Assembly (NCBI GenBank): GCA_000004985.1
Contig: GG738899.1
Direction: 5' to 3' (one strand)
DNA: 64,000 nt
Origin: Naegleria gruberi
Taxonomy: Eukaryota
A model generated the notes under the pieces. The model saw only the letters and a program-made list of their open reading frames with translations. It was not told where the DNA came from and made no database searches. Made by a program: the position numbers and the translations under genes. Within the stretch, counting starts at the first letter, position 1. Every line of letters begins with the position of its first letter. Of the stretch, positions 1 through 54,779 are shown in pieces.

Positions 1-3000
1 GACTGTTATTTCAGGAAAAGTATTTGGTTCATCATCTGGCACTGATGGACCTGCGTTGGATACCGTAATTTCGCCGAAAGGTCTTTCGTTTCTTCCAGAC
101 GATTCGATTCTGACATTGGATCATGAATATTTCAAGATTATTAATCAGACAGATGGAATGTTGAGAACACTATTTAAATTAGAAAGTTTCAAGCCAAGTA
201 CAAGTTCTTTCGTTTTTGGGAATTATTTGATTGGAAATGAAAACAAAATTCTAAAGATTGATTGGTTGGCTGGAAGAGTTTCATTAATTTTGAAAGGAGG
301 AATAGGTGCTTTTGGAGATGGAGTTAATTTAAAGAATAGATATTTCAAATCAATTTCTGCAATTGCATTTAATGAGTCGAGTGGTGAATTATTTGTTGCC
401 GATTCATCATCTGAAAATACTTTGGAAAAAATTAACATTTCAAATGGAACGTTGCAAAGCATTTCTCTAACATTTTCGAATGTTTCATGTTGGAATTCAT
501 CAATAGAGACGAGGAGTGTTATTTCATATAATCCAGTTTCATTGCAAATCAAGGATTCGAATTTGTTTTTGGCAAATACTGGAAGCCAAAGTTCAATTCA
601 AAAATTTGATCTAGCTCAGAAAGGTGGATCGAGTTGTTTTTATGCAGGTTCAATCAGTAGTGATAGATTATTATCTAGATCTGGACCTCTTTCAGTGATA
701 ATGAATAATCCAAATGGAATTCATTGTTCACAAGTTTATGATGAAATTTATATTGCAGGTTTGTTTCGCATATTTTGGAAAATCAAATAACTTTCAATAA
801 TAGATACTGATAATCATCGAATTTTGAAAAGTAGAAGAGGAACAGTGGAAGTTATTGCTGGAAATGGTATTCAAGGTTATTCAGGTAAGTTGCCATTTCT
901 AATAATTTTATAAATTATAATAAATTTTAAGGTGATGGAGGTTTGGCTATTAATGCTCAGTTAGATAGACCTCATTCAGTTTATTATGAAGGTAGCACAA
1001 GAACTCTGTACATAGCAGACTCTGGTAATCATCGAGTGAGATCTGTACAAATGGATACTGGAATAATTTCAACAATTCTTGGAACTGGAAATTCTGGTTT
1101 CAATGGAGATGATATGAATCCGTTAGAAATTCAACTAAATTTCCCAAAATACGTTGTCCACTCACCAGGATGGGGTCTATTCATTTCAGATAGCAATAAC
1201 CACAGAGTGAGATGGTTAAACAATTCGGTTGTGACTACCATTTTAGGAAGTGGAAATTCTGGTTCAAAAATTGTGACTAACAATCCGACTCTGACTGAGC
1301 TTACTTCACCATTTGGATTATTTTTTGAAGCCTTGGCAAGTACTCTCTACGTTGCAGGTATGTTTCATATGAATTAATTTCAGTGTTTGACAAATTCGTC
1401 TAGATTCGTTCAATCACAGAATTTTATCTGTCTCCCTATTCGATGCAAGATCTGTTTCCATAATAGCAGGAACTAATTCACCTGGTTACAATGGAGATGG
1501 TATGAATCCAACACAAGCCAAGTTATTTCTTCCTAGTTCTGTTTTCATGTTATCTAAATATGAAATTTACATTGCTGATTCGTATAATAATAGAATTAGA
1601 AAGATTAGTAATGGAATTATTTCAACATATGCAATGGCTTCTCAAAAGACAGATCTCAATATACCAATTGGAATGTGTGGATATGGAAATGACCTCTTTA
1701 TTTCAACCGAGAATGAAATAATAGAATTAGTTGGAAGTTATATTTATAAGAAAGTGGGAGGATTAGGAGATGGATTGAACGTCTTCTATGCTCACGTCAA
1801 TCCAACAAAGATTCTCTTCTATCCAGACAATAGAATGTTAATTTCAGAATCAAGTACGAATAGAATTCGATTGGTGAATGAAAATGGAACGATTTCAACA
1901 ATTGCTGGAACTGGTAAATTTGGATATGGAGGAGATACAAGTGAGGCCAATGTTGCCATACTTGCTTCACCGACTGGTCTGTCATTTAGCCCTAATCATT
2001 CCACAGTTTACTTTGCCGATTCCTCCAATAATCGTATCAGAAAATTGGTTTCGGATTTGGTTTTCCTTGTTGCTGGCACAGGGGATGCTGGAAAATCCTC
2101 ATCAACCGATCCTTTTCAATCCAAATTCAATAATCCTAGACTAATTGCCACTCTCACCAATGGAGACGTTGTAATTGGAGATACTCTGTCCAATGAAATT
2201 CGAATTATTTCCAATAAGGAAGGAACAATTCGAACAATTGCTGATATCACAGCAGCCACCGACATGATTTCCACACAAAACAATACTCTCTACATCTCCA
2301 CCAATGAACAGATCATCAAGGCAACTCCACGCTGTGAAACAGGATTCCAATTAGTGAAACAAAACACTGAATGTGTTCCAATTTGTTATGGAATGTTTGA
2401 GAGTGGAATGGTTTGTTCAAGTCGTGGTGAATGCACTTCTCCAGATAATTGCAAATGTTGGAATGGATTATACACGGGAAAGGAATGTGAAATTCCAATT
2501 TGTTTTGGGATCTCTGCAAATGATCCTAATGTATGCTCGTATGGAAATGGAACTTGCATGATCAATAACAAGTGTCAATGTTTGGATGGATTTTATGGAG
2601 AAACTTGTCAATTTCCAATTTGTTTTTCTAAAATAATTGGAGAATCATGTGGTGGACCAAGCAGAGGAGCTTGCACCAATAAGGATGTTTGTAAATGTGG
2701 TCAATTTTACACTGGCGAACAATGCCAATACCGAATGTGTCAAGGAAAGAGTGAAATAGACAAATCTGTATGTAGTGGACATGGAAAATGCCAAGCTAAT
2801 GGAAGATGTGAATGTGACACTCTTTATATTGGAGATGATTGTTCCAATATGTCACAAATTTATGGATTGAGCATTGCTTCTGCACTCATTATTGTTATCC
2901 TCACTACAATGTTGGTAGTTTCTCTCATTTTGGGAGTAATCGTCTATAGGAAGAATAGGCGAGAGAAGAAAATAATCGAAACTGAACTCTCACTTGATGA

Positions 3001-4099
3001 AAGATTATTATCCTCAACTGATATATATGAAATGTCTCTATCTCACGGTTCATTAGCATCGCATGCTACTGTATCAACTGAAGATGCTTCTTCCTTCGTG
3101 ATTCCACTTCACAAGATTGGAATGGATAAACCAATTAAGGTTAGTTTCAAATTAATTATTCTATTAACAATTGAATCTTGATAAATTAATTTAACACAGA
3201 GACTTGGAGAAGGTGGAATGGGAAGTGTTTTTATGACCAAATTTAATGGAATGACAGTTGCTGTCAAGGTCTTTGATTTGAATAACTTGAATATTTCAGA
3301 GGAGGATTTCAAGAATGAAGCAATAGTATTAAGCAAACTTCGTCATCCAAATATTATTAACTTTTATGGAATTTCTACATCACCAACTAAACGATACATT
3401 ATCATGGAATGTTTGGATCAGAGCTTGGAGAAGGTAATTGCCAAATTGGAAATGAAACAATTATCTTTCACACTCGAACAAAAATTGAGAATGTTGCTGA
3501 ATATTGCTAATGGAATTGAATATTTGCATTTTTTGAAACCGAGGAGGATTATTCATCGCGATTTGAAAACAGCTAATATTCTACTAGACTCGAATGGAAA
3601 CTGCAAGGTTTGTGACTTTGGGTTGAGTAAATCCATTTCACAAGCAACTGTTTCCGCACTTACTAATCAATTGGGTACACATTTTTATATGGCTCCAGAA
3701 TTATTCGATATCAAACCGATTGATCCGACCTATGCCACATCAGTTGATATCTACAGTTTTTCTATTATCATGTGGCAATTACTATTCGAAATTAAGGATC
3801 CCTATCTCAGTAAATCTCCAGAAATATTGAGAAAGCTTGGAACTACCTCAATTCTTGAACAAGTAACTTCCTACCAATTGACCAAAATGATTTGTGAGAA
3901 CAACCACAGACCAAGCATTCCTTTCAATTCCATTGAATCATGCCATGAATGGTGTTTCGAATACATGCCTTCCTCCCAAGACGAATCTCCTCAAATCTTT
4001 GCACTTTCCCAATTAATCCAAGAATGTTGGCAAACTGATCCAAAACTCCGACCAAACATTGAACAAGTTATCCAACACCTTCAATCCCTACTCACCTAA
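1..4099 (+). CDS. Receptor-type protein kinase (multiple NHL repeats, tenascin-type EGF-like modules, single transmembrane segment, TKL-like kinase domain). 5' partial, starts upstream of the window. Exons ~1-758, 804-884, 932-1357, 1470-3139, 3200-4099.
   Basis: Track ORFs 56-790, 943-1377, 1502-3181 and 3218-4099 are all on + and are joined by short introns with GTTTGT/GTAAGT/GTATGT/GTTAGT donors and AG acceptors that preserve NHL and kinase motifs across junctions (e.g. ...DKPIK|RLGEGGMGSV, a Gly-loop). Repeated NHL-like motifs (AGxGxxGxxGDG, NNHRVR, YIADSxNNRIRK). EGF modules CxCxxGxxGxxCxxPICFG. Hydrophobic transmembrane segment LSIASALIIVILTTMLVVSLILGVIVY followed by KNRREKK. Kinase motifs VAVK, HRDLKTANILLD, DFGLSK, CWQTDPKLRP. 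Position 2 onward is in frame with NHL-like sequence, so the gene is 5' truncated by the window edge. Confidence 0.8.
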
Positions 4100-4387: not shown

Positions 4388-6146
4388 ATGATGATGATGA
4401 ATCAAAAGAGAATATCTGCCGTTAGATCATTGATGAAGAATGTTAATGGCAAGAATTCCATCATCATGATGAATAAGTGTTCCAATATGATGTTGATGAA
4501 GAATAATTATCACTCGAGTTTGTATCAATCGATGAAGGTTGTTCATCCGGTTGAGATTGCTGCTACACCAGAGAATAAGGATACTTCACTTCCAACTGCT
4601 GAGGAAATTCAATTTGTTGCTCCTATTGAAGATGGTGGTTTGTCGTCGACTGCTCATGTTTCCTTCTATGATATTGAAGAAGCCTTTGCAAGAATTAGTA
4701 AGTTTTGTATATATTGTTCATCAATTCTCATCATATCATGTAATTTATACATTGTTTATACTTCTTTCCATCATCATGTTGCTAATTTAAATCTTCTTCA
4801 TCATCTTTCATTTATAGAACCACTTTTACCTCCAACCCCACTGCAAGAATCAGCTGTTTTAACACAAGAAATATTCGGACAACAAAAGAACGTTTTGCAT
4901 CCTAGAAAGGTCTTTTTGAAATATGAAAATAAGCACATGACTGGAAGTTTTAAGGAAAGAGGAGCTATTAACAAGTTAGCTGCTTTGGATACAGAACAAA
5001 GAAAGAGAGGTGTTGTTGCCTCATCTGCTGGTAACCAGTAAGTATATTATCTAAATTCATTTTAGTTAAATTTCAATAGTGCTCAAGGTATGTTGAAAAT
5101 GCATTTTGTGGAGTTTTTAACTGTTTTTTAACTGTTTGATCAATATTTGGAATACAGCTGTTGCTTATCATGCTATGAGACTTGGAATTAAGGCTACTAT
5201 TTGTATGCCTGTGAATAGTCCACTTTCTAAAGTGGCCGGAACAAAGAGATATGGAGCTGAAGTAGTATTATTCGGAGAAAGTGTCGATGATGCCTATCAA
5301 GAAGCTTTGAGAATTAAGGAGGCAGAAAATAGAGTTCTCGTCCATCCATTCAACGATGACGCCATTATTGCTGGCCAAGGAACATTAGGTTTGGAACTTT
5401 TGGAACAATCACCATATATTGACACAATCGTGTGTCCAATTGGTGGAGGTGGTCTTATCAGTGGTGTTGCCATTGCTTGTAAGACTGTTAATCCAAAGAT
5501 TAAGGTTTATGGTGTTCAAACTGAAAATGTTCCTTCCATGGTTACTGCCAAAAAGAATAGAAAATCCACAACTGTTCCTTTCCATGCTACCATTGCTGAT
5601 GGTATTGCTGTTAGAAGAATTGGTGATTTGACATTCCCAATTATTGATCAATTTGTCGATGATATTGTTACTGTCACGGAAAGTGAAATTGCTCACGCTG
5701 TTCTCGTCCTTTTGGAAAGAGAAAAGACTCTCGTAGAAGGAGCTGGTGCTACTCCAGTTGCTGCCCTTTTGAGTGGAAAGTTAGAGGAAGTGACAAAGAC
5801 AAGCAGTGGTTCTCATCGTGTCTGTTGTATACTTTCTGGAGGTAATATGGATGTTGGTACTGTTAGAGATATTATCGATAGAGGTTTGGCACAAAGTGGT
5901 CGTTTAGTTCGTTTGAGAACTGTCGTTCCTGACGTTCCAGGTCAATTAGCTAAGGTTTTGACACTTTTGGGAGAACTTAAAGTCAACATTAGAGAAGTTG
6001 ACCACGAAAGAAATTACAATGTTCCTGTTGGTTATACTGGTACTGTTATTACATGCCAAACAAGAGGTTTTGAACACATTGAAAATGTCAAGAATAGTCT
6101 CATTCAACACGGTTTCAGTTTTGAAATGATTCAGTGTCATGATTAA
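4388..6146 (+). CDS. PLP-dependent threonine/serine dehydratase (threonine deaminase-like, with C-terminal ACT-like regulatory domain). Exons ~4388-4697, ~4818-5037, putative 8-nt micro-exon ~5080-5087, ~5158-6146.
   Basis: PLP-lysine motif KHMTGSFKERGAINKL (S-F-K-x-R-G). GGGGLISG glycine-rich loop. Across the proposed micro-exon the conserved SAGNHAQ(G/A)VA motif is restored (SSAGN|HAQ|AVAYHAMRLGIKATICMP). The C-terminal ~80 aa (LVRLRTVVPDVPGQL...VNIREVDHER) resembles the ACT-like regulatory domain of biosynthetic threonine deaminases. The N-terminus MMMMNQKRISAVRSLMK is presequence-like. Intron 1 has donor GTAAGT and acceptor TTTATAG. Confidence 0.75.
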
Positions 6147-6358: not shown

Positions 6359-9300
6359 TTATTTTTCTGTATTGTGATAAATACCATTCCAATCTCTTGG
6401 TGGATGAACAGCGTACTCTCTACATCTTTCTCTCAATGTTCTCGAAGGGCCATCTTCTGGTCGAATCTTTAGACATTCCTCAAAGAATAGTAAAGCTTGA
6501 GCAAAATCTCCAGATGCATACATTTCCAACGCTCTTTCGTATATTTGTCTGAGTCTCATTATTTCATCGTTTGGAGTTGGGAGAGGTCTACTACTCTTTG
6601 TATCTTTTGAGGGTTCTTTAATTGAATTGTTGGTTCTTCTTCCAAGCAACTCATATATAACACAACCAACACTCTTACCCTTCACACTGATTTGGTCAAT
6701 CTTTCTCACCTCCAATTGTTCGGCAACATAAGGTTGGAGGAATGTATCTTCAGACAACAGAATGCTGGTTCCATAAAACTTGTTTGTTCCTTCCAAACGA
6801 GAAGCCAAATTTACAGAATCACCAATAATGGTAAAGTTTAGTCTCCAAATACTTCCAATATTACCAACAACACAGGACCCACTATGTAACCCAATACGAC
6901 ACCTAAACAGTGGCTTTGCTTCCCTTTGCCATTTTCTTCTAAGGTCAGACATTCTTTGTTGACATCTCAAGGCAGCTCTACATCCTCTTAAACCAGAAAT
7001 TGCTGATGTGTCAGGAGCTCCCCAGAAGGCCATTACTATTTCAAAATTTTTGTTACATCCTGAAATCGTTAAACTTACCTGAATCACCAATATACTTATC
7101 CAAAGTTCCATTCTCGTAAATAATTTCTTCTGTCAACACATGAAAATATTCAGAAACATGTTGAATCAACATTTCAGGATCCAATTCTTCACTAATTGTT
7201 GTAAAATTTTCAATATCTGAGAAAAATATTGTCAAGTTACCAACAAGCCTACCACCCAAAGTAATTTCATTACCATTCTTCAACATGTCTCTCAGTAGTT
7301 CATTTGGAACAAACTTTTTAAATGATCGAACAGTTGTTTTCATCTTATCAAAGGCAATAGAAAGTTCATGAATTTCAGTTGTGGTGTTGTAAACTTTTGA
7401 AGTTTTTGGAGCTTCTAAATTTGAGAGAGCCTTACTTTCTCTTGAGAAGAATCTCAATGGTTTGGACACAGCTTGAGAGAATATGCAACTAAAAAGTACA
7501 CCAAAAGCAAGGCACACAAATGCGATACCAATTGTTAGTCCCAACATGAGCATAACATTACTGACAAAGTCACCATCTGGAGCAACTACGACAACAATCC
7601 AATGCATGTTCAAATCGACTGTTCTTTTTACTACTCCATGGGCAACAACATAGTCTTCACCACTAAAGGAAAAGGAATTCAAATGTGGATTATACTCAGC
7701 TGTGGACTTATTCTTATAGCCAGAGTAATCACTTGGTAAGATGTTGAGTAATACGTGTTTCAGTAAAGGATCTGAAACTTCGTGTGCTTCAGCAATTCTG
7801 ATATCGAAAGTGGAACTTTCATCAAAAACTGCTATTGCTGATGAATTCTTGAACCCAAGAACACGCTTATGGAGAACGGGTGCACCGCTATTGCTCTCTC
7901 TAGTGAAAAATTCAACAATAGCTACAAAAGAATTTGGAGAAACATAGAACGATCTAACAAAATCTGACAAGTATTTGATGTTAACATTGATACTGGTCAT
8001 TCCTAGAAAAGTTGAATCATATGGAGAATAAACGTTAGATTGGTAGCAGGTATAGATTCTTTCCTCAATTGACGATCCCTGCCATTGAACATCCATTGGA
8101 ACGAGGGCCTCTTTGTGTTTGAGAGCTAATTTGTAGAACTCTCCTTGAGTTGGGTCCCATTTATCCATTAATTCTGAATCAGTGACAGTTCTCAATTTTC
8201 CATATTTCGAAAAGTAGTAAAACGACTGAAATGTTTCATCATTTGCCTGCTTCATCAGAAAAACTCTTTGCATATTGTCGAATTGCCCCTCATCTTCGTT
8301 TGAAACTGGAAGTACTAGTTCATAACTTTCATCAACATACAAATAATCTGTATTTGGGCAAGTAAAATCCACCAAGAATATCTTTCCTATATATTGATGA
8401 TGGCTTACAGCTAGTAACCTTAAAATATTTACATAATTTTCATAAGAGTAAAAGTTACTAGTTGAAGAATTAGTATTAAGGCCACCCTCATTCATAAAAT
8501 AACTCCTATAGATGGCATGTCTCTGTTGTCTTGTTGCCTCCATACATATCCACAAAAAGTCGGAAACATAAGACTCTGCTCTGAAATATGACTGTGCCAT
8601 TACTTGATTTTTAACATCATTGGAAGCAAGAATTGAAAATCCAATAGAAATTCCTATTAATGAAAGAACTGGTATCACTAACATTACTAGCATCATGGTG
8701 ATCAATAAACATCTGAATGAGCAAATATAAAAATGTGGCCTCAATTCAACAGAAGTTGGTCTCTTCTCCTCTCCGGTAATACTTTGTGGCGTAACTATAG
8801 AATCGTTATCAAAAAGCTTTTTTGTACTAGTTTTAAAGCTTGATGCCAACGACTCTTGCTCTGCCAAATTGTGGAAGGAAATTTCTCGAGAAGGAGCAAC
8901 ATAATAAAGTGAGTTGGAACGAGCAAGTTTTTCTTGAGGTTGAATTTGGAGCATACTATTTCTCCTAGAATTTGGATTGGATGATAACTTAGAATTTGGG
9001 GATTTGGTGGAGGACATTGTGTTTGTACTTTTAACATTTGGAATAAAAACACTGGAAGAAGGTGGAGCTTGTACTTGTTGAACTGGAGTTGAATTTGGTA
9101 TACTAGTGATGGACTCTAAACTTTGTTCATTGTTGGCCGTCTTGGTCATCACATAAGTATTTAAATTATGAACTGTGGTTGGGACAGACTCTTGGTCCGA
9201 CAAATCACGAAAGAAGAATTCCTTCACTGGTGGAGCATAATAGATGGGATTATTGGCGTAAACTGGTGTTCTATCAGGAAGAGAGGGTGGGATTTGCATA

Positions 9301-9422
9301 ATACTATTCCTTCTCGAACTTGGGTTCGATACAGGATATTTAGAAATAAGATTGGGTAGTGATTCATTACTACAAGATTCAATGAGTGGTGTTACTTTGT
9401 TGCTGTGCATTGGATTCGTCAT
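6359..9422 (-). CDS. Receptor-type class III nucleotidyl (adenylyl/guanylyl) cyclase: short S-rich cytoplasmic N-terminus, transmembrane segment 1, ~330-aa extracytoplasmic Cache-like sensor domain, transmembrane segment 2, cyclase catalytic domain, C-terminal TPR-like tail. One intron (~7036-7079) inside the catalytic domain.
   Basis: Track ORFs 7053-9422(-) and 6359-7111(-) join through a 44-nt intron (GTAAGT...GAAATAG) giving ...LDKYIGDS|VMAFWGAPD, matching the class III cyclase consensus K-x-IGD-x-YMAVSG. Downstream motifs RIGLHSGSCVVGNIGS...RLNFTIIGDSVNLASRLEG...YGTSILLSEDTF. Two hydrophobic segments (LLITMMLVMLVIPVLSLIGISIGFSILA and VMLMLGLTIGIAFVCLAFGVLFSCIF) flank a domain with Cache-like features. 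Confidence 0.8.
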
Positions 9423-9732: not shown

Positions 9733-11895
9733 TTACTTTTTACTTGAATTCAAAAATTCTGAATACCATGATCGATTTGGATAGGTTTTCATGTTTTCTC
9801 GAAGTGTTTTGAAGAGATGAAAGTCATCCTTATTCTCTACTCGATAGAGAGAATCCACAAATGCATCCACTGAATCGTAATTAGATACCTCGGGTTTGTC
9901 CTGTTTTTGTCTCAACTCCATTGCTTGACAGTGAGAATGCCACTCCTTCTCATAGAGAGGCAAATTCTTCTGAAGGGCTTCCCTTAATTCCTTTCCTCTC
10001 GATTTGGTCAATAATTTAAAATACAAATCACCTTGGAAGGGAAGTCTAAGATCTGCATAGGTGAGAGTGACAAGGCGTGTTGTCGTATCTGAGGTTTTGT
10101 AAAAGTAGTGAATGGTCAATCCATCAGCACTGATTGGTTCCTTTCCATCTGTTGTTCCATTCACTTCATTAGATACAGATGAATCACTATTCTCGTAGGT
10201 TTTATGATACATTATGAAGCAATCAAGCCCAGCATCATAAATCAAGCTACACAGATAATGGAACACTCTCTGACTGAATCCCAATCCAATTGTGAAAGGA
10301 ACATCTAATGTGGTAAAGGCAAGATGCGCTTCTTTTGAACACCTTGGGGAAATAGGTGGAGAACCCGATAAACAAGAGCAGGATTTTGAGTTTCTCAGAA
10401 TGGTTCTTGGTACTTCATCCTCTGGAACAGTACATTTGAACTGTGTAGTATCAAAGATTCGATTTGAAGAGTTTTCTTTCTGTGCAAGAGGTGATACTTG
10501 TTGGGAACCTGTTGTATCATTGCTCATACTAGTTCTGGTGCCTCTTGGTGATTGAGTTGTTTGGGGTGGATTCAATGCTGAACTTGTTGAACTTGTTGAA
10601 GATGATTGAGGGAATATTGAGGCAGTGGAAGAATTTCCTCCAGAATAGGTGATATTCTTGAAATCCACAACCCAAGGGTCCAACTTTTTACGGACCTCTT
10701 TACTGGACGCATAAATTGCCAGCACGTAATCTCTTGGGTAGGGTAATTGATAGACATACTTGATACACTTGAGTCCTTTCAAATTCTTTCCAATCATGAA
10801 ATTGGTCGAGGAAATGTAGCGAGCTGTTGACATTGGTTTCTCCTTCTCATAGACACAATTCCAATAGGGTGAGTCTTCAATGAGAGCAAAACTATTCGTA
10901 ATGTGATGATCTGACAATGTCTTGTGAATGAAATCCTCAGTCTTGAATCGACAATCTCTTCCCTTGGTTGTGTCCAATGCAATGGCTCTGGTAAATTCCT
11001 CTCCATTCTTTAAGAGAAAGTTTTTCAAAAAGTCACTCCTTGAATATCGTGGAAATTGGTCCAATTTCATGTCAGTGAGTACAGCCAAGTAGACAGTGCT
11101 GAATAGATTCTCAGGCGATAGTAACTCAACCATTGTAATGAAATGATAAGCCTCCTCTGGCCATTGATTGGCTTCATAGACATTTTGTAAAGTTTCCCAA
11201 TTATTTTTCACCTTCTTATTTATGATATTTGGTAAATTCAACCCACCAATAATATACTTCTCCATAATTACAGAAGCCAATGCATAACAAATCTTGATGG
11301 CATTCACATAGGGTTCTGCCACTGATGAGCTAGCAACGACCCCCGAAAAGATGTCATTCACAAAATTCAAACTACGCACAGATTTTGTATCCAATGTTTG
11401 TGGTGTATTGCCACCAGTTTTTCTCCTTCCAAATAGTGAAGTTCCAGTACTATTTCTTGGAGTACTTGTTGTTGAGGATGATGAGGTGGTAAAGGATGAA
11501 TTCGGTAACAATCGGTTGCCAAATCTGAGAAAGTAAGCATTCTTGTACTCTTCAAAATCTCTCAAAAAGTGAACAGTTTCATTACAGAGGGCAATATTGG
11601 TGAGATAGTCATAGAAATGATTTCTTGCAGCTTCCACTTCCATAACTTCAGTAAATTGGACAGCATACTTGGAAATATCAAAAGAACCAGAATTATTATT
11701 GGAAAATGCTGAACAATTATTAGAAAGATGTCCACCGTTAGGAGAGGTTTCATTCAATGAAGAAGAATTTGATGATGAACTTGCCGAGGAACTATTCGAA
11801 TTGTTAGAATTATTGAAGAGGAGTGGAAACAGAGAACGAGACGATCTCTTACTCGGTGTAGAAGGAGAATTGACCATCATGAAGGAGATGACCAA
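9733..11895 (-). CDS. RGS-like domain protein with internal START-like (lipid-binding) domain and long S/T/N-rich linkers. Paralogous to 53301-54779.
   Basis: Single 720-aa minus-strand ORF. N-terminal block VQFTEVMEVEAARNHFYDYLTNIALCNETVHFLRDFEEYKN fits the RGS pattern F..(F/Y)L..E.S.EN..F...E.YK. Central block ...YWNCVYEKEKP...YQLPYPRDYVLAIYASS...WVVDFKN resembles START-domain signatures (W.VV.E...; s.RDFV...). Extensive poly-S/T/N low complexity. Confidence 0.5.
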   Translation of the reverse strand: MVISFMMVNSPSTPSKRSSRSLFPLLFNNSNNSNSSSASSSSNSSSLNETSPNGGHLSNNCSAFSNNNSGSFDISKYAVQFTEVMEVEAARNHFYDYLTNIALCNETVHFLRDFEEYKNAYFLRFGNRLLPNSSFTTSSSSTTSTPRNSTGTSLFGRRKTGGNTPQTLDTKSVRSLNFVNDIFSGVVASSSVAEPYVNAIKICYALASVIMEKYIIGGLNLPNIINKKVKNNWETLQNVYEANQWPEEAYHFITMVELLSPENLFSTVYLAVLTDMKLDQFPRYSRSDFLKNFLLKNGEEFTRAIALDTTKGRDCRFKTEDFIHKTLSDHHITNSFALIEDSPYWNCVYEKEKPMSTARYISSTNFMIGKNLKGLKCIKYVYQLPYPRDYVLAIYASSKEVRKKLDPWVVDFKNITYSGGNSSTASIFPQSSSTSSTSSALNPPQTTQSPRGTRTSMSNDTTGSQQVSPLAQKENSSNRIFDTTQFKCTVPEDEVPRTILRNSKSCSCLSGSPPISPRCSKEAHLAFTTLDVPFTIGLGFSQRVFHYLCSLIYDAGLDCFIMYHKTYENSDSSVSNEVNGTTDGKEPISADGLTIHYFYKTSDTTTRLVTLTYADLRLPFQGDLYFKLLTKSRGKELREALQKNLPLYEKEWHSHCQAMELRQKQDKPEVSNYDSVDAFVDSLYRVENKDDFHLFKTLRENMKTYPNRSWYSEFLNSSKK

Positions 11896-13664: not shown

Positions 13665-16139
13665 ATGTTAACTTCTAGTTCGAATAATAACAATACTACC
13701 TCTAGTACGAATGGTAGTACTAATAATAATTCATCATCATCAATAACGTCATCAGCAAGTACATCTATTTCTAATACAACAACGACATCTTCAATAATAA
13801 CTTCAAATAATAATAACAACAATGGAAGTACAACAACTGGTGGTAATAACGTTGGATCATCATCATTAGGAACTTTGAATAGTAGTTCTAATAATGCAAA
13901 TAACAATAATAATAATGGAGGATCATTGTTGACAACACCTACAATTGCAACTCCTGGTATGAATAACAATTTAATGTTGAATTCTGGAGGAGTTTCATTG
14001 TTAAGTATGGCTCAATCTCCACCTTCGAATAATTCTATTCTAAACTCTGGACTTCATTCGTCAAGTTTGTATGGCATTCAGAAAAATGCAACTGAAAACG
14101 TTCCTACTAATAGTACAGTAACAACAAGAGATGAAAATTCAGTGTATGGAAACTATTCGAAAATTGTTGAAAAATCAGAAACCTTTAGAACAGTGACATA
14201 TGCAAACGTTTCACGTTTGGCAACAGATTTTGGATTTTTAATTGATAACGAGGAGTTGAGTGACGTACAACTAAGAATTGGAAGTGGGAAGAATCAAAGA
14301 ACATTCCATTGTCATAAGGTTATATTATGTCAGAGATCTGAATATTTCAGAAATATGTTCCTTGTGAGTAGGGGAATGTTTTTAGAATCTGGAACACCTC
14401 TTTCAACAGGTACAAGTTTACCATTCTCTGGTAATTCAGAGGTGTTGACTAATTCGTTCGGCACTAGAATTTCAATTGTAGAAAAACCAAATATTACACC
14501 TATTGTTTTTGAAAAGGTATTACAATATATTTATACTGGAAGAGTTACGTTTACCACACAACTCAAACATAAGAAAATCAAGGATAAAACAGTGCATGTC
14601 ACTCACATGATTAGCACAGATGATATTGATAATGTCATTTCAATGTGTATGCATGTATTGGCAGCTGCTGATGAATTGATTTTGTTGGAACTCAAGAATT
14701 TCTGTGTTGACTATGTAAAGCAATACATTGATTCGGAGTCGGCCATTGTTCTATTGGACTTGGCATCAAAGTATGGTTCTGAGGATTTAATTGAAAATTG
14801 CTTTGACTTTATCAAGCATAATGCTAGAGAAGTGATTGCAAGTGAATCGTTACCTTTTGTATCCAAGCTCACTATGAAGACTTTCCTTGAGAGTGAATAT
14901 CTCGCTGTGGATGAAATTGAACTGTTTCGTGCCTTGTTGAGATGGGGTTTGTCACAAATTGAACACTGTCAAGATGAAGATGCTGTAGAGACCTACATTG
15001 CCAATGCAGATGATGAGGAACTTTCTGATGAAGAAGAGGAAATTGCTCTCGGCAGCAATGGTCTATCACCAGAGGATATTTCACACATTAAGGAGATACT
15101 ATCACAACCTCCAGAAGAGGAAGAGTTAATCTTCCGTAAAAAGCATATAGCCATGTTCAGAAAGAAACAATTACTGAATGATTACGAGAGCCCAAATGAT
15201 GGAGATGACACTGAGACAATTCCATTTGCTGTTGTCAAAAATCCACTGAGGGATGACATTAGTTTGCACACAAGACTCTCATTAGATCCTGTACCTCAAA
15301 ATAGACATCATACCGATTTGATTCAACTTGCAAATAGATTGAGGGATGAGGATAAACAACTATTAAGAGATGCTTGCATGGATTTAATTTCTTGCATTCG
15401 TTTCCCTCTCATGACAGCTCATCAATTGACAGATGTTGTGGAAATATTTAATATTGTGGAGGATTCACTATTGTTGGAAGCTTACAGGCATGTATGTGCA
15501 CCAGATAGAACACCACTTGTGAATTGCAAAAGAGCCCAGAAGAGAAAGGGAGCCACTGAAGGAGAGAATACTCACTTTGGAATTTCCACCATTTTGAAGA
15601 GTAAAAACAGGCAGGAACTTATCAAAATGGCTGGAGAAACCTCTATTACAAAAGGAAAAATTTGGACCTTGGCTTTCAAAGCTACAAAGGATGGATTTGA
15701 CAGTAATGTATTCCACAAAATGTGTGACCAGAAGGGACCCTCCATTCTTGTTTGCAGAACTACTGAGGGTTACATATTCGGTGGATACAATTCAGTGGAG
15801 TGGAATTCAAGTAATCAATGGCTTAAGGCAAATGATACTTTCCTCTTTAGTTTGATCAATCCATACAATGATGGTCCAAGAAAACTCAAAGTTAAGAATA
15901 CACAGAGAGCTGTCTATTGTCATGCAAGTTCAGGTCCATCATTTGGTGGAGGTACAAATCTCGTATTCGATCCCTATGATTTATATCTCGATTCCACCCT
16001 TAAACGAGGCCATACCAATGTTGGAGGTGCTTATTCAACATTCAGAGGAGGATTCAGAAGTGATGAAGCTCAAAAGAGTTTAGCAGGAAGCTTGAATGCA
16101 TGGATTTTAAACGAAGTTGAAGTTTATCTTCTCCAATAA
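13665..16139 (+). CDS. BTB/POZ-BACK-TLDc domain protein with N-terminal poly-N/S/T region.
   Basis: Single 824-aa ORF. BTB core DVQLRIGSGKNQRTFHCHKVILCQRSEYFRNMF...FEKVLQYIYTGRV. Acidic stretch DDEELSDEEEE. C-terminal TLDc-like block GKIWTLAFKATKDGFDSNVFHKMCDQKGPSILVCRTTEGYIFGGYNSVEWNSSNQWLKANDTFLFSL...GGGTNLVFD. Confidence 0.7.
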   Translation: MLTSSSNNNNTTSSTNGSTNNNSSSSITSSASTSISNTTTTSSIITSNNNNNNGSTTTGGNNVGSSSLGTLNSSSNNANNNNNNGGSLLTTPTIATPGMNNNLMLNSGGVSLLSMAQSPPSNNSILNSGLHSSSLYGIQKNATENVPTNSTVTTRDENSVYGNYSKIVEKSETFRTVTYANVSRLATDFGFLIDNEELSDVQLRIGSGKNQRTFHCHKVILCQRSEYFRNMFLVSRGMFLESGTPLSTGTSLPFSGNSEVLTNSFGTRISIVEKPNITPIVFEKVLQYIYTGRVTFTTQLKHKKIKDKTVHVTHMISTDDIDNVISMCMHVLAAADELILLELKNFCVDYVKQYIDSESAIVLLDLASKYGSEDLIENCFDFIKHNAREVIASESLPFVSKLTMKTFLESEYLAVDEIELFRALLRWGLSQIEHCQDEDAVETYIANADDEELSDEEEEIALGSNGLSPEDISHIKEILSQPPEEEELIFRKKHIAMFRKKQLLNDYESPNDGDDTETIPFAVVKNPLRDDISLHTRLSLDPVPQNRHHTDLIQLANRLRDEDKQLLRDACMDLISCIRFPLMTAHQLTDVVEIFNIVEDSLLLEAYRHVCAPDRTPLVNCKRAQKRKGATEGENTHFGISTILKSKNRQELIKMAGETSITKGKIWTLAFKATKDGFDSNVFHKMCDQKGPSILVCRTTEGYIFGGYNSVEWNSSNQWLKANDTFLFSLINPYNDGPRKLKVKNTQRAVYCHASSGPSFGGGTNLVFDPYDLYLDSTLKRGHTNVGGAYSTFRGGFRSDEAQKSLAGSLNAWILNEVEVYLLQ

Positions 16140-20559: not shown

Positions 20560-23500
20560 ATGGCACTGGTAAGTTTTATATGCGTTTAATGCGTGATTCA
20601 ATTTTGATAGAGAAACATTTCGAATGCAACAATAGTTAAATCAATTGTTGTTGCAGCAGTTGTTTTGGGTACTTTGATAGGTGCCCTAGTGATTACACTC
20701 GCTGTTACTCTAACAATCAAGTCTGATTTGAATGGCCAATTCACAGATTATGTTAAAGGATACAAGAATAGTGATATTGTAGTCCAACCAACAATTTCAA
20801 CAACATCTTCCAGTTCTCCTGCTCAATTAGACATTTCACAACAAGGATTAGAAAAGCCATATCATGGCTCCCTCAGACTAGGTTCAAACAATACCATCAT
20901 CTACCACTCTGAGAAGTATTTCTCAGGTAATGATACTTTTGAATATTATGTTACCTATGGCGAAAGCTCTTCTCTAAAAGTAAAGAACAGAGTATCCATT
21001 CTAGTTATGAATAGAGATCCAAAAGCTGTACCACTCACATTCGAAATACCAAAGAATTCTCATGATAACATCATTGATATCTTTGAAAAGAATGATAAGT
21101 TTGGAATGAAGGTTACTGATGACGATGATGATATTCTCGAGTTGGTTTCAGTATCCACTCCAAAATTGTCTGGCTCTGTTGTCTCCTCCAATAGTAAGCA
21201 AATTATCTACACTCCATGCACTAATTGTATTGGTGTAGATTCTTTTACATATACTGTTACTGATTTCAATTCAACAGTCTCCTCCACAATTACTATCAAC
21301 TTGGTCAATACTCCACCAAATGCTGTTAGAGATGATTTTACCATTAGCAAGAACAAGTTGGCAACTCTCAATGTCCTCTCCAATGATATTGATGAGAATC
21401 TTGACGAGTTGTACATCATCTCTGCTGGAACTGGTGAAGGTTCTATTGGTAGCGTTGTTGTTTCAACAGACAGAAAGTCATTGATCTATTATCCTAAAGC
21501 TGATACTAAGCCATACCTTGACGTTTTTAGTTATGTCATTACAGATGACTTGAATAATCCAAATTCAACCTCTACAGGTTCTATCCATGTTACAGTTACC
21601 AATTCACCACCTAATGCTCCTGAAACCAAACAAGTTTCAGTTTCCAAGAATTCAGCCAACTCTACCATTGATCTAACCTTTACTGATAATGATATTCTTG
21701 ATACTGTGAATGTTGAAATATTATCAACACCAAAGAGAGGTTACTTTTCTTTTGTTCAACAAAAGTATATTGATTCTGTTGATTATTTGGGTCAAATCTA
21801 TGTAGATGTTCTCAAGTTAAGATATCAATTATTGTACTCTCCAGAGAAAGGTGTTTCCTATTCTGAGAGTTTCAATGTAAAGGTAACAGATGGCTACTCA
21901 AGTTTGATTACAAGTATTATTATCAATGTGGTCAACACTCCTCCTATTTCTGTTAATGATACCATTACATGTACAAAGAATAATGAAGTAGTTGTTGACG
22001 TAATCTCCAATGACTATGATGTTGATGGTGATTCTATCAAGTTGTCTACCACCGATTGGGAGCCAAATAGTTTCAATGGTGGAGAAGTTTTCAGAACTGA
22101 TGACAGGTCAATAACATACAAAGCTCCTCAAGGGTTTGTTGGTATTGATACTGTAAGATATTACATTACTGATGGTGAATCAATTTCATATGGATTCTTG
22201 ACTGTCAATGTTCAAAGTGTAAAGCCGATTGCGGTGAATGATGTATTCTTTGTTCCAAAGGGACTCAAGACGTTCTTGAATGTATTGAACAATGACTACA
22301 GTCCAAGTAAGGATGAAATTTTGTTATCCTTTGCTACCATTAGAAGTGTTGAAGAATCCAATGTAGTACGTAGTCTCAGAAATAACGTCTATGGTTACGA
22401 ATACTCTGCCTCAGATGTGGAATATGTCGATACATTCAATTACAAGGTTGTTGATGTTTTTGGATTGACTTCCGACTCTGCAGTAGTAACTGTTAAGGTT
22501 GTAAACACTCCTCCAAAAGCTGTTGATGATGTCATTTCAGTTTCTTGGAATAGAGATGCTGTTTTGAATGTTCTCGAAAATGACTATGATGAAAATCCAA
22601 GTGATAATCAATTACTTGTTGTTAAGAGAACTATTCACGGAGAAAATCAAACAGTTCCTACTCCAGTCATCTTTGAATCAGGAAAGAAGTTACTCCTTTC
22701 CCCACCAAATGGCTTCACTGGTACTTTTGAATTTTTCTATGTTATTTCTGATACTTTTGATGAATCTAATGTGGCTAAAGTTACCGTTTCTATTGTAAAT
22801 CACCAACCAATTGCTAATGATGATCATGTTAGTGTTCATTGGAGAGATGGAATTTCTGTTATTAATGTTTTGCAAAATGATAGTGATGAAGATGGTGATA
22901 TCCTATTAATCAAGTCTTTCACTCAACCATCCAAAGGATTTGTGGTCAAGAAAGCACTCCCTGATGGAACTGAAGTATTTGAGTACTCTATTCTTGCTTC
23001 TGTAAAATTTGTCGGTATTGATAGTTTCCAATATGAAATTACAGATAATGGCAAGTCCTCAACAGCCACAGTCTATGTCAATGTTACCAACTTTTCTCCT
23101 GTAGCTAATGAAGATTCCTACAATGTACATTGGAACGCAGAGCAACAAGAGTATGAGATTCTCTCTAATGACTTTGATGGCGATTCTGATCCATTGAAAA
23201 TTGTTCCAAACTCTCTCATAATACCAAGTCAATTCAGAGGTCAAACTGAAATCAATGCTGATGGAACTGCAATCAAATTCAAACCTTCAGTTTCAGGTGT
23301 ATTTACTCTCACTTACAGAATTAGTGACACAGTAAGCCAATCATTGGACACTAAAGTTACTTTTAATGTGACCAACTTGGACAAACCGCTCCTGAGAACA
23401 ATCGAAAAGAACATCCATTGGACTATGAACCAACCAATTTCTATTCCTATCACAACTTTCACAAGAGATTCTGATGGTGATTTGCTTGTCATTTCTTCAG

Positions 23501-32500: not shown

Positions 32501-33218
32501 TCCTGTGTGTTCAGGTGGTTGTGGAAATGGTTATTGTAGCTCACCAGGTACTTGTTCCTGTAATTCTGGATGGTCTGGCACAACATGTTCAACACCTGTC
32601 TGCTCTGGTGGCTGTGGTAATGGTTTTTGCAGTGCTCCTGGAAAATGTACTTGTAATTCTGGATGGTCTGGCACAACTTGCACAACTCCAGTTTGTTCAA
32701 GTGGTTGTGGTAATGGCGTTTGTAGTTCACCTGGTTCTTGTTCCTGTAATTCAGGTTGGAGTGGTGCTACTTGTACAACTCCTGTTTGTTCAACATGTAA
32801 TGGTAGAGGTTCATGTGTTGGTCCAGAAAGTTGTTCATGTAACAGTGGATGGTCTGGAAATCTCTGTCAAACACCTGTCTGCTCAACCTGCAATGGACGT
32901 GGTACTTGTGTTGGTCCAGAAAGCTGTTCTTGCAGTAGTGGATGGACTGGAAACTTGTGTCAAACACCTTCATGCACCAATAATTGTAATGGACACGGAA
33001 CCTGCACTGGGCCAAATACCTGTTCCTGTAATTCTGGTTGGAGTGGAGCTGCCTGTGAAACTTGTAGTAATTGTTGTTATGGTATTCCAGCTTCTGATCC
33101 AAGTGTTTGTTCCTGGGGTCAAGGTAGATGTGTGAGTGGTGCTTGTGTCTGTATTGGTCCTTACTATTGTGGTGCACAATGTCAACAATGTGGTTGTAAC
33201 AAATATATGTGTCCTTAA
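20560..33218 (+). CDS. Giant adhesin-like type II membrane protein (>4,500 aa): 3-codon first exon (20560-20568), 42-nt intron (20569-20610), N-terminal signal-anchor transmembrane segment, ~28 tandem ~100-aa cadherin/VCBS-like repeats, Cys-rich linker, VWA domain, then at least 22 tenascin-type EGF-like repeats. The CDS is interrupted by a 51-N assembly gap (~32234-32284) inside the EGF array. Stop at 33216-33218.
   Basis: ATG GCA CTG|GTAAGT...GATAG|AGA joins in frame to track ORF 20665-33135, giving MALRNISNATIVKSIVVAAVVLGTLIGALVITLAVTLTIKS (hydrophobic anchor). Repeats carry the recurring signature V(N/Y)(N/T)xPxAxxDxxxVxWNxxxxxIxVLxNDxDxDGD, about every 100 aa from ~20980 to ~29300. VWA/MIDAS-like DVVFIVDGSYSIS...RIGIVQYSSDATVELDLN at ~29560-30200. 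EGF modules C.G.G.C.....C.C..GW(T/S)G.DC..P(I/V)C recur every ~31 aa from ~30760. Track ORF 32208-33218 continues the same EGF repeats after the gap in the correct frame and ends ...CQQCGCNKYMCP*. Confidence 0.8.
20980..29300 (+). repeat. Coding tandem array of ~28 divergent ~300-nt (100-aa) cadherin/VCBS-like repeat units within the giant gene.
   Basis: Periodic protein motif (VNTPPxAVxDxISVxWNxxAxLNVLxNDYDxDxD and variants such as IHW/THW/FHW + ...ND.D.DGD) counted about 27-29 times in the translation of 20665-33135. Confidence 0.7.
30760..33120 (+). repeat. Coding tandem array of ~93-nt EGF-like repeat units, highly similar at the nucleotide level, containing the assembly gap. The true copy number is unknown.
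   Basis: Recurring ...tgt caa tgt caa act ggt tgg act gg(a/t) tct gat tg(t/c) tc(a/c) att cc(a/t) att tgt tat... units. A run of 51 N at ~32234-32284 lies in the middle of the array. Alternate reading frames stay open across the array (track ORFs 30878-32305 +), typical of a low-complexity repeat. Confidence 0.75.
32234..32284. other. Assembly gap (51 N) inside the EGF-repeat array of the giant gene.
   Basis: Literal run of n in the sequence. Flanking sequence on both sides is the same EGF repeat unit. Confidence 0.95.
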
Positions 33219-53300: not shown

Positions 53301-54779
53301 TTATTCTTCCAATTGGGAAGAATTATATTTGGATTGAGATTCTTTCCACTCCATAAACCAAGATCTATTTGGAAAAGATTTCATGTTATCATTTACAATA
53401 CGTTGAGAAACACCTCTATCATCATTGTTAGAAGTATCTACTGGATGTTTACCTCCATCAGTCAACTTATCCAAGATGAAATTCAATCCCTTGGCCATTG
53501 TTTTACCTCTCATTTTACAAAACTGCCCCACAGTCAAATTTTGTAAAGGTAATTGAAAGTCAGTGTACATGATATTCATGAAACGAGTGGTATTGTCGTT
53601 AACTCTCATCATTATATAATAACACAAGCCATCAATTATTAATGAATTAGGAGGAGGACTCGTAACACCCTTTGGAAATTGAGCACTATGTAGCAATATC
53701 ATATACATGTCAAAACCAGCATCCTTAATGCAAGTGACAGATGATTCAACAAATCTCTTTTTCAATAGTGGAATTTTAGTATCAAAGGTGGTGGTCATAA
53801 TCTTAATTCCATATGGACACGTCATTCCATGGAAATCTTGATTAGGTTCAATATAATCAAGATATTTGAGAGCATTACAAAACATGGGTTCGAAATGTTG
53901 GTGATTGACTGGATTTGTCCACATTCCCCAAACATCTTCTAAATTGTAAGGTAGATCAATAGCTAATTTACAAAGTTTGAATCCTTTCAATTGGTCAGAA
54001 TTGAAAACATAACCAGTTCTTGACGTAGTAACTGTCAAATTATTTTTTTCGTACACAACCTTCCAATCTGGAGTATCCTGAGCAAGTGTGATCCCAAAAT
54101 AAATGTGGTCATCTGTAACGATTGGGGATTTCAAATCGTGAGGTTTGAATCTGAGATCGACTTTGTAACCTTTCGAAATATCAATTCCAATCTTTCTGGT
54201 ATATTCGATTCCCATCTTGTGGAGGAAATAATGAAATTGATCTGAACGAGAGAATTTGGTAAAGTGTCCCATTCCCAAATCCACCAGAATTACCAGAATG
54301 ATTGATCCTAAAAGCTTTCCAGGATGTAGCTCATCCAATATTTCCTGAGAATCGAAACTAAATGTTTCATTGTTAAGCTTCTCACTAGTTTCTTTCCATA
54401 GCTTGAGAGAGGATCGTTGATGAGGGCCAATATTTAATTCTTGTTCTCCTCCAACTTGAAGAAAAGTCTTTACTATTGCATTCATCTTTTCCTGCAGAGA
54501 ATCCAAGTTTCGTCTAACAATCTTTTGTACACTAACTCTACGAGCTACATCAGTTTCCAATTGTTGAGTTTCCTTCAACATCATTAAAGAGAAGTTATCA
54601 GCTGAAATTCCTGCAATCTTCTTATACTCTTCAGTGTATTCAATCACCTTGTTGATGAATAGAATACTTTCCTGGTTGTGATGTTTCTCTAGGAATTGTT
54701 GAAACACTCTTCGAAACTGAGAACATTTGATGGCTTCTTCGAATACAATCTGATAATTTCGAGGATCAAAAGCGTTCAT
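53301..54779 (-). CDS. RGS-like domain + START-like domain protein (paralog of 9733-11895).
   Basis: Single 492-aa ORF. N-terminal FRRVFQQFLEKHHNQESILFINKVIEYTEEYKK (RGS-like pattern). C-terminal START-like signatures DWKVVYEKNNLTVTT...KKRFVESSVTCIKDAGFDMYMILLHSAQFP...LIIDGLCYYIMMRVNDNTTRFMNIMYTDFQLP. Conserved blocks are shared with 9733-11895 (YWNCVYEKEKP vs DWKVVYEKNNL; PRDYVLAIY vs KKRFVESSV). Confidence 0.5.
   Translation of the reverse strand: MNAFDPRNYQIVFEEAIKCSQFRRVFQQFLEKHHNQESILFINKVIEYTEEYKKIAGISADNFSLMMLKETQQLETDVARRVSVQKIVRRNLDSLQEKMNAIVKTFLQVGGEQELNIGPHQRSSLKLWKETSEKLNNETFSFDSQEILDELHPGKLLGSIILVILVDLGMGHFTKFSRSDQFHYFLHKMGIEYTRKIGIDISKGYKVDLRFKPHDLKSPIVTDDHIYFGITLAQDTPDWKVVYEKNNLTVTTSRTGYVFNSDQLKGFKLCKLAIDLPYNLEDVWGMWTNPVNHQHFEPMFCNALKYLDYIEPNQDFHGMTCPYGIKIMTTTFDTKIPLLKKRFVESSVTCIKDAGFDMYMILLHSAQFPKGVTSPPPNSLIIDGLCYYIMMRVNDNTTRFMNIMYTDFQLPLQNLTVGQFCKMRGKTMAKGLNFILDKLTDGGKHPVDTSNNDDRGVSQRIVNDNMKSFPNRSWFMEWKESQSKYNSSQLEE

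What the first reader, a model, noticed from the sequence alone, without database searches (positions are those of the whole stretch)
9733..11895. Paralogous RGS-like + START-like domain proteins (second copy at 53301-54779)
Two minus-strand genes 41 kb apart share both an N-terminal RGS-like block (F..FL..E.s.Enl.F...v.eY) and a block with START-domain signatures (W.VVYEK..., s-RDFV-like, ...D...Y...). A lipid-binding START domain fused to a G-protein regulator would couple lipid sensing to G-alpha GTPase control. The combination is not a standard metazoan architecture.
Basis: inference. Interest (0 to 1): 0.5.

Follow-up and report, generated by a model that had tools for sequence, protein, structure and literature searches.

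The report
Two paralogous RGS–START signalling proteins

Summary
The observation and the interpretation both hold.

**The two genes.** Gene A is an ORF at 9733-11895(-), with its real ATG at 11880, giving 715 aa. Gene B is at 53301-54779(-) and encodes 492 aa. They are true but old paralogues (BLASTP E 5e-22 and 2e-9, 24-34% identity).

**RGS domain.**
- Each protein alone scores just under the Pfam RGS cut-off (21.6 and 23.5 bits against 23.9).
- The family profile matches solved RGS domains at E 1e-19.
- The Asn equivalent to RGS4 Asn128 is conserved in 68 of 69 members, A and B included.

**START domain.**
- Pfam START does not hit A or B.
- Two Willaertia homologues pass both Pfam RGS and Pfam START.
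- A profile of the C-terminal domain alone hits STARD10 and STARD6 (E 2e-4), with the invariant Arg on the START "RDF" motif.

**Distribution.** All named homologues are heterolobosean (Naegleria, Willaertia, Acrasis). There are 81 representative clusters.

**Likely function (inferred).** A Gα GTPase-activating protein whose placement or activity depends on a lipid or sterol bound by the START domain. This parallels metazoan DLC RhoGAP-START proteins.

**Novelty.** A 2014 survey already listed START among the domains found in RGS genes. These are new members of a known kind, of modest interest.

The parts
9733..11880 (-). Gene A: RGS-START protein, 715 aa from the first ATG (the listed ORF extends to a TTG at 11895)
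   Evidence: ORF list. Upstream sequence and codon check. AlphaFold model with folded parts above pLDDT 90. Best homologue is N. gruberi XP_002679553.
11695..11880 (-). A aa 1-62: disordered Ser/Asn-rich N-terminal region
   Evidence: pLDDT below 50; low-complexity sequence.
11011..11673 (-). A aa 70-290: RGS domain, with a disordered Ser/Thr-rich insertion at aa 127-166 after the helix that matches RGS4 a4. Holds E101 (RGS4 E87), F105 (F91), N215 (N128; nt 11236-11238), D274 (D163) and R278 (R167).
10921..11010 (-). A aa 291-320: conserved family-specific linker between RGS and START (G293, I300, D316 in 89-96% of members)
   Evidence: Family conservation profile.
9901..10920 (-). A aa 321-660: START (helix-grip) domain, ordered a1, b1-b3, a2, a3, b4-b9 and a long C-terminal helix. 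A roughly 100-aa disordered Ser/Thr/Pro-rich insertion (aa 418-515) lies between b4 and b5. W340, invariant R538 (nt 10267-10269), D549 and R628 are conserved.
9736..9900 (-). A aa 661-715: conserved C-terminal tail specific to the family (motif DN.K.YP.RSW..E; W705 in 83% of members)
   Evidence: Alignments; helices in the model.
53301..54779 (-). Gene B: RGS-START protein, 492 aa, ATG start, compact form without long insertions
54219..54758 (-). B aa 8-187: RGS domain. E37 (RGS4 E87), F41 (F91) and N116 (N128; nt 54432-54434) are kept. The D163 position is Gly, R167 is Lys and N88 is Ser.
53460..54122 (-). B aa 220-440: START domain. W239, invariant R342 (nt 53754-53756), D353 and R424 are conserved.
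53304..53459 (-). B aa 441-492: conserved C-terminal tail (DNMKSFPNRSWFMEW)
   Evidence: Alignment.

Best explanation
Genes A and B are two anciently diverged members of a multi-copy family of cytosolic two-domain proteins. All named members come from Heterolobosea. Each protein has an N-terminal RGS domain, a conserved linker, a canonical-size START lipid-binding domain and a conserved C-terminal tail.

Shown here: the domain identities, the paralogy, the family distribution, conservation of the key residues, and purifying selection on B.

Inferred: the RGS domain binds GTP-bound G-alpha subunits and speeds their GTP hydrolysis, using the conserved Asn that corresponds to RGS4 Asn128. The START domain binds a hydrophobic membrane ligand, a sterol being the weakly favoured guess. 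That binding either brings the GAP to particular membranes or alters its activity through the conserved linker and tail. G-alpha signalling would then be shut off according to local lipid state. This is the same logic as metazoan DLC RhoGAP-START proteins, built with an RGS domain in place of a RhoGAP.
For: - Paralogy: BLASTP E 5e-22 and 2e-9.
- RGS by sequence: 64 of 84 members hit Pfam RGS. The family profile matches RGS17 at 1.4e-19 and RGS4 at 2.8e-14.
- RGS key residues: the RGS4 N128 equivalent is Asn in 68 of 69 members, E87 is kept in 63 of 67, D163 in 57 of 72 and R167 in 60 of 72. N215(A)/N116(B) is one of only two invariant columns in the 53-sequence alignment.
- START by sequence: P0075 and P0076 pass both Pfam RGS and Pfam START (precomputed PF00615+PF01852). 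The START-only profile hits STARD10 at 2.4e-4 and STARD6 at 2.6e-4. In those alignments the second invariant column (Arg) falls on the RDF motif and the conserved Trp falls on the 'GW' motif.
- Constraint: dN/dS about 0.14 between B and its orthologue. Intact two-domain homologues occur in N. gruberi, N. lovaniensis, Willaertia magna and Acrasis kona.
- Context: N. gruberi has a lineage-specific G-alpha diversification (PMC3971589). The START domain of DLC1 binds phosphatidylserine and is needed for DLC1 function (PMC8561924).
Against: - No biochemical evidence exists for GAP activity or lipid binding in any family member.
- The RGS4 Asn88 position, a G-alpha contact, is Pro, Ser or Thr throughout the family.
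- B also has Gly at the D163 position and Lys at R167. A lacks the Glu that precedes the catalytic Asn. GAP competence is therefore uncertain, especially for B.
- Pfam START does not detect A or B, and sequence identity to solved STARTs is only 9-15%. Ligand class cannot be read from sequence.
- Model coordinates and PAE were not available, so cavity size, the inter-domain interface and accessibility of the G-alpha-binding face were not examined.
- No G-alpha gene lies in the window.
Confidence: 0.6

Rival explanations
1. The RGS domain is a non-catalytic G-alpha-binding or scaffolding module, as in Axin, the GRK2 RH domain or SNX14/SNX25. The protein would then be mainly a START lipid-transfer or lipid-sensing protein that RGS targets to sites of active G-alpha or to another partner.
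Against: The Asn128 equivalent is nearly invariant (68 of 69), and E87, D163 and R167 are mostly kept. That pattern is expected only if the G-alpha switch-region interface is under selection. By sequence profile the family is far closer to catalytic R4/RZ RGS proteins (E 1e-19 to 1e-14) than to Axin (6e-5), GRK2 (5e-7) or SNX25 (2e-3).
Confidence: 0.2
2. The START-fold domain does not bind a lipid. It would instead act as a protein-interaction or autoinhibitory module that packs on the RGS domain through the conserved linker and tail.
Against: The domain has full canonical START size and topology. The best matches are all bona fide lipid-binding STARTs, with about 200 residues aligned. The Arg of the RDF motif and the Trp are invariant or nearly so.
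Confidence: 0.15
3. The resemblance is chance or low-complexity similarity, the ORFs are pseudogenes, or two separate genes have been mis-joined.
For: A contains long Ser/Thr/Asn-rich tracts. The individual Pfam scores are sub-threshold.
Against: The significant alignments lie outside the low-complexity tracts. There are 81 representative homologues, 54 of them at E 1e-10 or better, and many span both domains. Both reading frames are uninterrupted in a 35% GC genome. dN/dS is about 0.14. The models are confident in the folded parts.
Confidence: 0.02

Closest known systems
Heterolobosean RGS + START proteins: Willaertia magna KAL9651164 and KAL9651607 (Pfam RGS+START); N. gruberi XP_002679553, XP_002671238, XP_002668765 and XP_002670812; N. 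lovaniensis C9374_008997; Acrasis kona 'loco' KAL0479804
   Same: Same family and same architecture (RGS, conserved linker, START, C-terminal tail). Homology covers both domains. A's best named homologue is N. gruberi XP_002679553.
   Different: The window's proteins are not in the databases searched. Best identities are 63-67% for B, to a metagenomic contig, and about 30% for A. A carries extra disordered insertions. All these entries are 'hypothetical' or 'predicted' proteins with no experimental work.
RGS-domain architectures surveyed by de Mendoza et al. 2014 (PMC3971589)
   Same: [quoted passage not shown] It also notes the G-alpha diversification in Naegleria gruberi.
   Different: The survey scored domains by Pfam only. 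Here just 3 of 84 family members pass Pfam START, so most of this family would have been counted as RGS-only. The taxa concerned are shown in a supplementary figure that I could not read.
Metazoan DLC1/2/3 (STARD12, STARD13, STARD8): RhoGAP-START
   Different: The GAP domain there is RhoGAP, acting on Rho-family small GTPases, not RGS acting on heterotrimeric G-alpha. DLC proteins also have a SAM domain. No RhoGAP or SAM is found in A or B. This is an analogy of design, not shared descent of the fusion.
R4/RZ-type RGS proteins (RGS4, RGS17, RGS2, RGS1)
   Same: Nine-helix RGS fold. The N128, E87, D163 and R167 equivalents are largely conserved. Profile E-values are 1e-19 to 3e-14.
   Different: The N88 position is changed. 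Loop insertions occur within the RGS domain (A aa 127-166, disordered; B aa 60-84). A large C-terminal START module is present.
SNX13/14/25 (RGS-PX sorting nexins)
   Different: No TM, PXA, PX or PXC domains are present here. The lipid module is START. Sequence similarity to the SNX25 RGS domain is weak (E 2e-3).

Membership tests
RGS domain (Pfam PF00615) | Pfam HMM score at or above the gathering cut-off (23.9 bits) for the protein itself | tested here: not met
   A scores 21.6 bits (E 3e-4) and B scores 23.5 bits (E 8e-5). Both are marginally below the cut-off because loop insertions split the domain.
RGS domain (Pfam PF00615) | Significant profile-level sequence homology to bona fide RGS domains over the whole domain | tested here: met
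   64 of 84 family members hit PF00615, best E 5e-19. The family profile matches RGS17 at 1.4e-19, RGS2 at 7e-18 and RGS4 at 2.8e-14, covering profile positions 15-165.
RGS domain (Pfam PF00615) | Nine-helix RGS bundle fold | tested here: met
RGS domain (Pfam PF00615) | G-alpha switch-contact residues (RGS4 E87, N88, N128, D163, R167) | tested here: inconclusive
   N128 and E87 are kept in both A and B. N88 is Thr in A and Ser in B. D163 and R167 are kept in A but are Gly and Lys in B.
RGS domain (Pfam PF00615) | GAP activity on, or binding to, GTP-bound / transition-state G-alpha | not testable with these tools
   Needs biochemistry.
START domain (Pfam PF01852) | Pfam HMM hit on the protein itself | tested here: not met
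   No PF01852 hit for A or B at E up to 1.
START domain (Pfam PF01852) | Homology to START shown by profile search or through intermediate sequences | tested here: met
   P0075 (36.4 bits) and P0076 (48.7 bits) exceed the START cut-off of 22. They are homologues of B across the START region. The START-only family profile hits STARD10 at E 2.4e-4 and STARD6 at 2.6e-4, and all three top matches are START proteins.
START domain (Pfam PF01852) | Helix-grip fold of canonical START size (about 200 residues: N-terminal helix, nine-stranded sheet, long C-terminal helix) | tested here: met
START domain (Pfam PF01852) | Conserved START motifs (Trp after helix a1; Arg of the RDF(V/I) strand) | tested here: met
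   W340(A)/W239(B) is present in 98% of family members. R538(A)/R342(B) is invariant. In the HMMER alignments they fall on STARD6 'SGWKVV' and on 'PRDF' / 'NRDV' of STARD6, StAR and STARD10.
START domain (Pfam PF01852) | Hydrophobic ligand cavity and lipid or sterol binding | not testable with these tools
DLC-type RhoGAP-START proteins | RhoGAP (and SAM) domain upstream of START | tested here: not met
   No RhoGAP or SAM hit appears in A or B; the upstream domain is RGS. The resemblance is of design only.
SNX-RGS sorting nexins (SNX13/14/25) | PXA-RGS-PX-PXC architecture | tested here: not met
   No PXA, PX or PXC hits. Only the RGS fold is shared.

The most novel reading that the evidence does not exclude
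The RGS-START family may be a heterolobosean invention in which the two domains form one rigid unit, held together by the strongly conserved linker and C-terminal tail. Occupancy of the START pocket by a sterol or other membrane lipid would then switch the G-alpha GAP activity allosterically. That would be a direct, single-polypeptide link from membrane lipid state to heterotrimeric G-protein signalling. The family would have diversified into many paralogues alongside the expanded G-alpha repertoire of these amoebae.
Probability: 0.2. Interest if true: 0.55.

Novelty: new member of a known kind. Interest (0 to 1): 0.3.

Why it matters
The result matters modestly.

- It confirms that an intron-poor, Naegleria-like genome carries at least two diverged members of an RGS-START family.
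- It shows that the START domain in most members escapes Pfam (3 of 84 detected). Domain-count surveys therefore understate how common this fusion is in Heterolobosea.
- If the inferred coupling is real, these proteins would be a simple system for asking how lipid or sterol state feeds into G-alpha signalling.
- They would also be an independent evolutionary parallel to metazoan RhoGAP-START tumour suppressors.
- Naegleria includes the pathogen N. fowleri, where lineage-specific signalling proteins are of some practical interest.

Nothing here overturns current understanding.

Tried and rejected
- **AlphaFold database search.** A Foldseek search of afdb50 would have shown how widely the two-domain architecture is spread. 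The library was not available.
- **Anantharaman et al. 2011** (Gene 475:63), which may describe RGS-START fusions, is not held. The supplementary figure S6 of de Mendoza 2014 is not held either.
- **Word-indexed search with the Pfam-positive Willaertia protein P0076.** It found only one further Willaertia paralogue. Whether the fusion exists outside Heterolobosea is still open.
- **Exact look-up of B.** Nothing is on record, so the source species is not identified beyond 'Naegleria-like heterolobosean'.
- **Synteny and segmental duplication.** The genes next to A and B are unrelated. The contig carrying B's orthologue P0001 shares no similarity beyond the gene itself. This is not a recent duplication.
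- **Other hits on B.** The Phage_NinH and Deltameth_res matches are below their cut-offs and lie in loop or tail regions, so I dismissed them as noise.
- **Unspliced intron in A.** I considered whether the 100-aa insertion in A's START domain is an unspliced intron. I rejected this because the frame stays open through about 300 nt of AT-rich DNA and the tract is Ser/Thr/Pro-rich like A's other disordered regions.
- **StAR residue numbering.** I first thought of equating the invariant Arg with StAR Arg188. The alignment places it on the 'PRDF' Arg instead, so no claim about the E169-R188 salt bridge is made.

Full report
**What is in the sequence**

The window is about 35% GC throughout. It is packed with long uninterrupted ORFs that encode eukaryotic signalling and adhesion domains.

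The finding covers two minus-strand ORFs. ORF A lies at 9733-11895 and is listed as 720 aa. ORF B lies at 53301-54779 and encodes 492 aa. A's listed start is a TTG, an artefact of bacterial-code ORF calling. The first ATG is at 11880, so A is 715 aa. A residues are numbered from that ATG below.

**Are A and B paralogues?**

Yes. BLASTP aligns them in two blocks. The first covers ORF-A 255-397 against B 147-289, at 34% identity and E 5e-22. The second covers A 519-720 against B 321-484, at 24% identity and E 2e-9. Neither block lies in low-complexity sequence.

A tblastn search of both proteins against the window finds only these two copies. Their flanking genes are unrelated. Their nearest homologues also differ. 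A is closest to N. gruberi XP_002679553 (P0046). B is closest to a metagenomic protein, P0001, at 67% identity. They are therefore old paralogues in different orthologue groups, not a recent duplication.

B is under purifying selection. Against P0001, dN is 0.23 and dS is 1.67 (near saturation), giving dN/dS of about 0.14.

**The family**

An exhaustive HMMER search with B found 81 representative proteins at E 1e-3 or better, 54 of them at E 1e-10 or better. Many align over the whole length.

Every member that carries a name is heterolobosean. They come from Naegleria gruberi (at least five paralogues), N. lovaniensis, Willaertia magna and Acrasis kona. The remainder sit on metagenomic contigs.

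B's exact sequence is not in the collection. The source is therefore a Naegleria-like heterolobosean that these databases do not hold.

**The N-terminal domain is RGS**

- Taken alone, A (21.6 bits) and B (23.5 bits) fall just short of Pfam's RGS gathering score of 23.9. Insertions in the loops split the domain.
- At family level the assignment is clear. 64 of 84 members hit Pfam RGS, best E 5e-19.
- The family profile matches solved RGS chains over the full domain: RGS17 at 1.4e-19, RGS2 at 7e-18 and RGS4 at 2.8e-14. Axin, GRK2 and SNX25 match far more weakly.

I mapped the family onto RGS4. The results:

| RGS4 residue | Family | A | B |
|---|---|---|---|
| Asn128 | Asn in 68 of 69 | Asn | Asn |
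| Glu87 | kept in 63 of 67 | Glu | Glu |
| Asp163 | kept in 57 of 72 | Asp | Gly |
| Arg167 | kept in 60 of 72 | Arg | Lys |
| Asn88 | Pro, Ser or Thr | Thr | Ser |

The Asn128 position is one of only two invariant columns in the 53-sequence alignment. It is the residue that inserts into the G-alpha active site (established knowledge of the RGS4-Gi-alpha1 complex). This pattern favours a working G-alpha interface but does not prove it, least of all for B.

**The C-terminal domain is START**

Three independent lines establish it all the same.

1. *Intermediate sequences.* The Willaertia homologues P0075 and P0076 pass both Pfam RGS (45 and 67 bits) and Pfam START (36 and 49 bits, cut-off 22). 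They are homologous to B across the START region.
2. *Profile search.* A profile built only from the C-terminal domain of 22 members hits STARD10 (E 2.4e-4), STARD6 (2.6e-4) and StAR (0.29). These are the three best matches in the whole PDB sequence set. The family's invariant Arg (A R538, B R342) falls on the Arg of the START 'RDF(V/I)' strand. The near-invariant Trp (A W340, B W239) falls on the 'GW' motif after helix a1.

For model A the four sterol-binding STARTs (STARD4, STARD5, STARD3, StAR) lead the list. Their margin over STARD10 and CERT is only 1-2 Z units. This is no more than a hint about the ligand.

**Other anatomy**

- A conserved linker of about 30 residues joins the two domains. 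B reads GIEYTRKIGIDISKGYKVDLRFKPHDL.
- A conserved tail of about 50 residues follows the START C-terminal helix, with the motif DN.K.FP.RSW..EW. Both are specific to this family. They suggest that the two domains are held in a defined arrangement. I could not test this because model coordinates and PAE were not available.
- A has three disordered Ser/Thr/Asn-rich stretches: aa 1-62, aa 127-166 inside the RGS domain, and aa 418-515 between START strands b4 and b5.

**How it most likely works**

Shown:
- Two-domain RGS-START proteins.
- Conservation of the RGS catalytic-assist Asn and the START motif Arg.
- Purifying selection on B.
- A family with many members, all named ones heterolobosean.

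Inferred:
- The RGS domain acts as a GAP for some of the many heterolobosean G-alpha subunits. N. gruberi has a lineage-specific G-alpha diversification (PMC3971589).
- The START domain binds a membrane lipid or sterol. That binding localises or gates the GAP.

The closest functional parallel is the metazoan DLC family of RhoGAP-START proteins. The DLC1 START domain binds phosphatidylserine and is required for function (PMC8561924). The parallel is in design only, because A and B have no RhoGAP domain.

Rival readings are listed separately with their weights: a non-catalytic RGS scaffold, a START fold used only for protein contacts, and chance similarity or pseudogenes.

**Comparison with what is known, and novelty**

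De Mendoza et al. [quoted passage not shown] Public W. magna proteins already carry precomputed PF00615 and PF01852 hits. The architecture is therefore known at the annotation level.

None of the named homologues carries a functional annotation, and my literature searches found no experimental study of the family.

The small addition here concerns detection. Most of the family, including A, B and the N. gruberi members checked, has a START domain that Pfam misses (3 of 84 detected). Pfam-based surveys would therefore undercount the fusion.

**Verdict**

These are new members of a known kind, of modest interest.

Noticed in passing
window 20665-33135 (+): A single 4156-aa ORF encodes a giant adhesin-like protein. 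It has 17 Big_9 and 13 Cadherin_5 bacterial-type Ig/cadherin-like repeats, a VWA domain (aa 2968-3081) and a C-terminal array of teneurin-type EGF repeats. The bacterial-style repeat domains in a eukaryotic surface protein are notable.
   Followed up: partly
window 6359-7111 (-) and 7053-9422 (-): A class III adenylate/guanylate cyclase lies immediately downstream of gene A. Its catalytic domain is split between two overlapping ORFs (Pfam profile positions 7-44 in one, 84-174 in the other). This implies a short intron or a frameshift near 7050-7115. A TPR repeat follows the cyclase domain.
   Followed up: partly
window 4388-5041 (+) and 5136-6146 (+): A PLP-dependent enzyme (PALP) with a C-terminal ACT domain, resembling threonine dehydratase, is split over two ORFs. 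This suggests an intron between about 5041 and 5136.
   Followed up: no
window 58088-63100 (+): A 1670-aa fusion of a DEAH-box helicase (DEAD, Helicase_C, HA2, OB_NTP_bind) with a weak, sub-threshold-stretch KH match and a C-terminal RBR-type E3 ligase module (IBR domains).
   Followed up: no
window 44188-45261 (+): A 357-aa ORF ends in a SHOCT domain (PF09851, E 2e-8). As far as I recall, this short C-terminal domain is mostly seen in bacteria.
   Followed up: no
window 13665-16139 (+), 36471-38894 (-), 56606-57901 (+): Three genes in the window look like substrate adaptors: BTB-BACK-TLDc, BTB-BACK-SPRY and a Kelch-repeat protein.
   Followed up: no
window 1502-3181 (+) / 3218-4099 (+), and 48005-51172 (-): Two possible receptor-kinase genes. 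In the first, an NHL plus teneurin-EGF ORF is followed 37 nt later by a separate kinase-domain ORF, so the two may be one gene with an intron. In the second, a beta-helix protein ends in only the N-terminal half of a kinase domain at its ORF end, so the gene may continue past an intron.
   Followed up: no
locus L002 202-1726 (metagenome ERZ929261, contig k127_196526): This contig carries the closest known orthologue of gene B (67% aa identity), at 36% GC like the window. Similarity extends upstream to position 202, 37 nt before the called start of P0001, so the database protein is probably truncated by about 12 residues at its N-terminus.
   Followed up: partly
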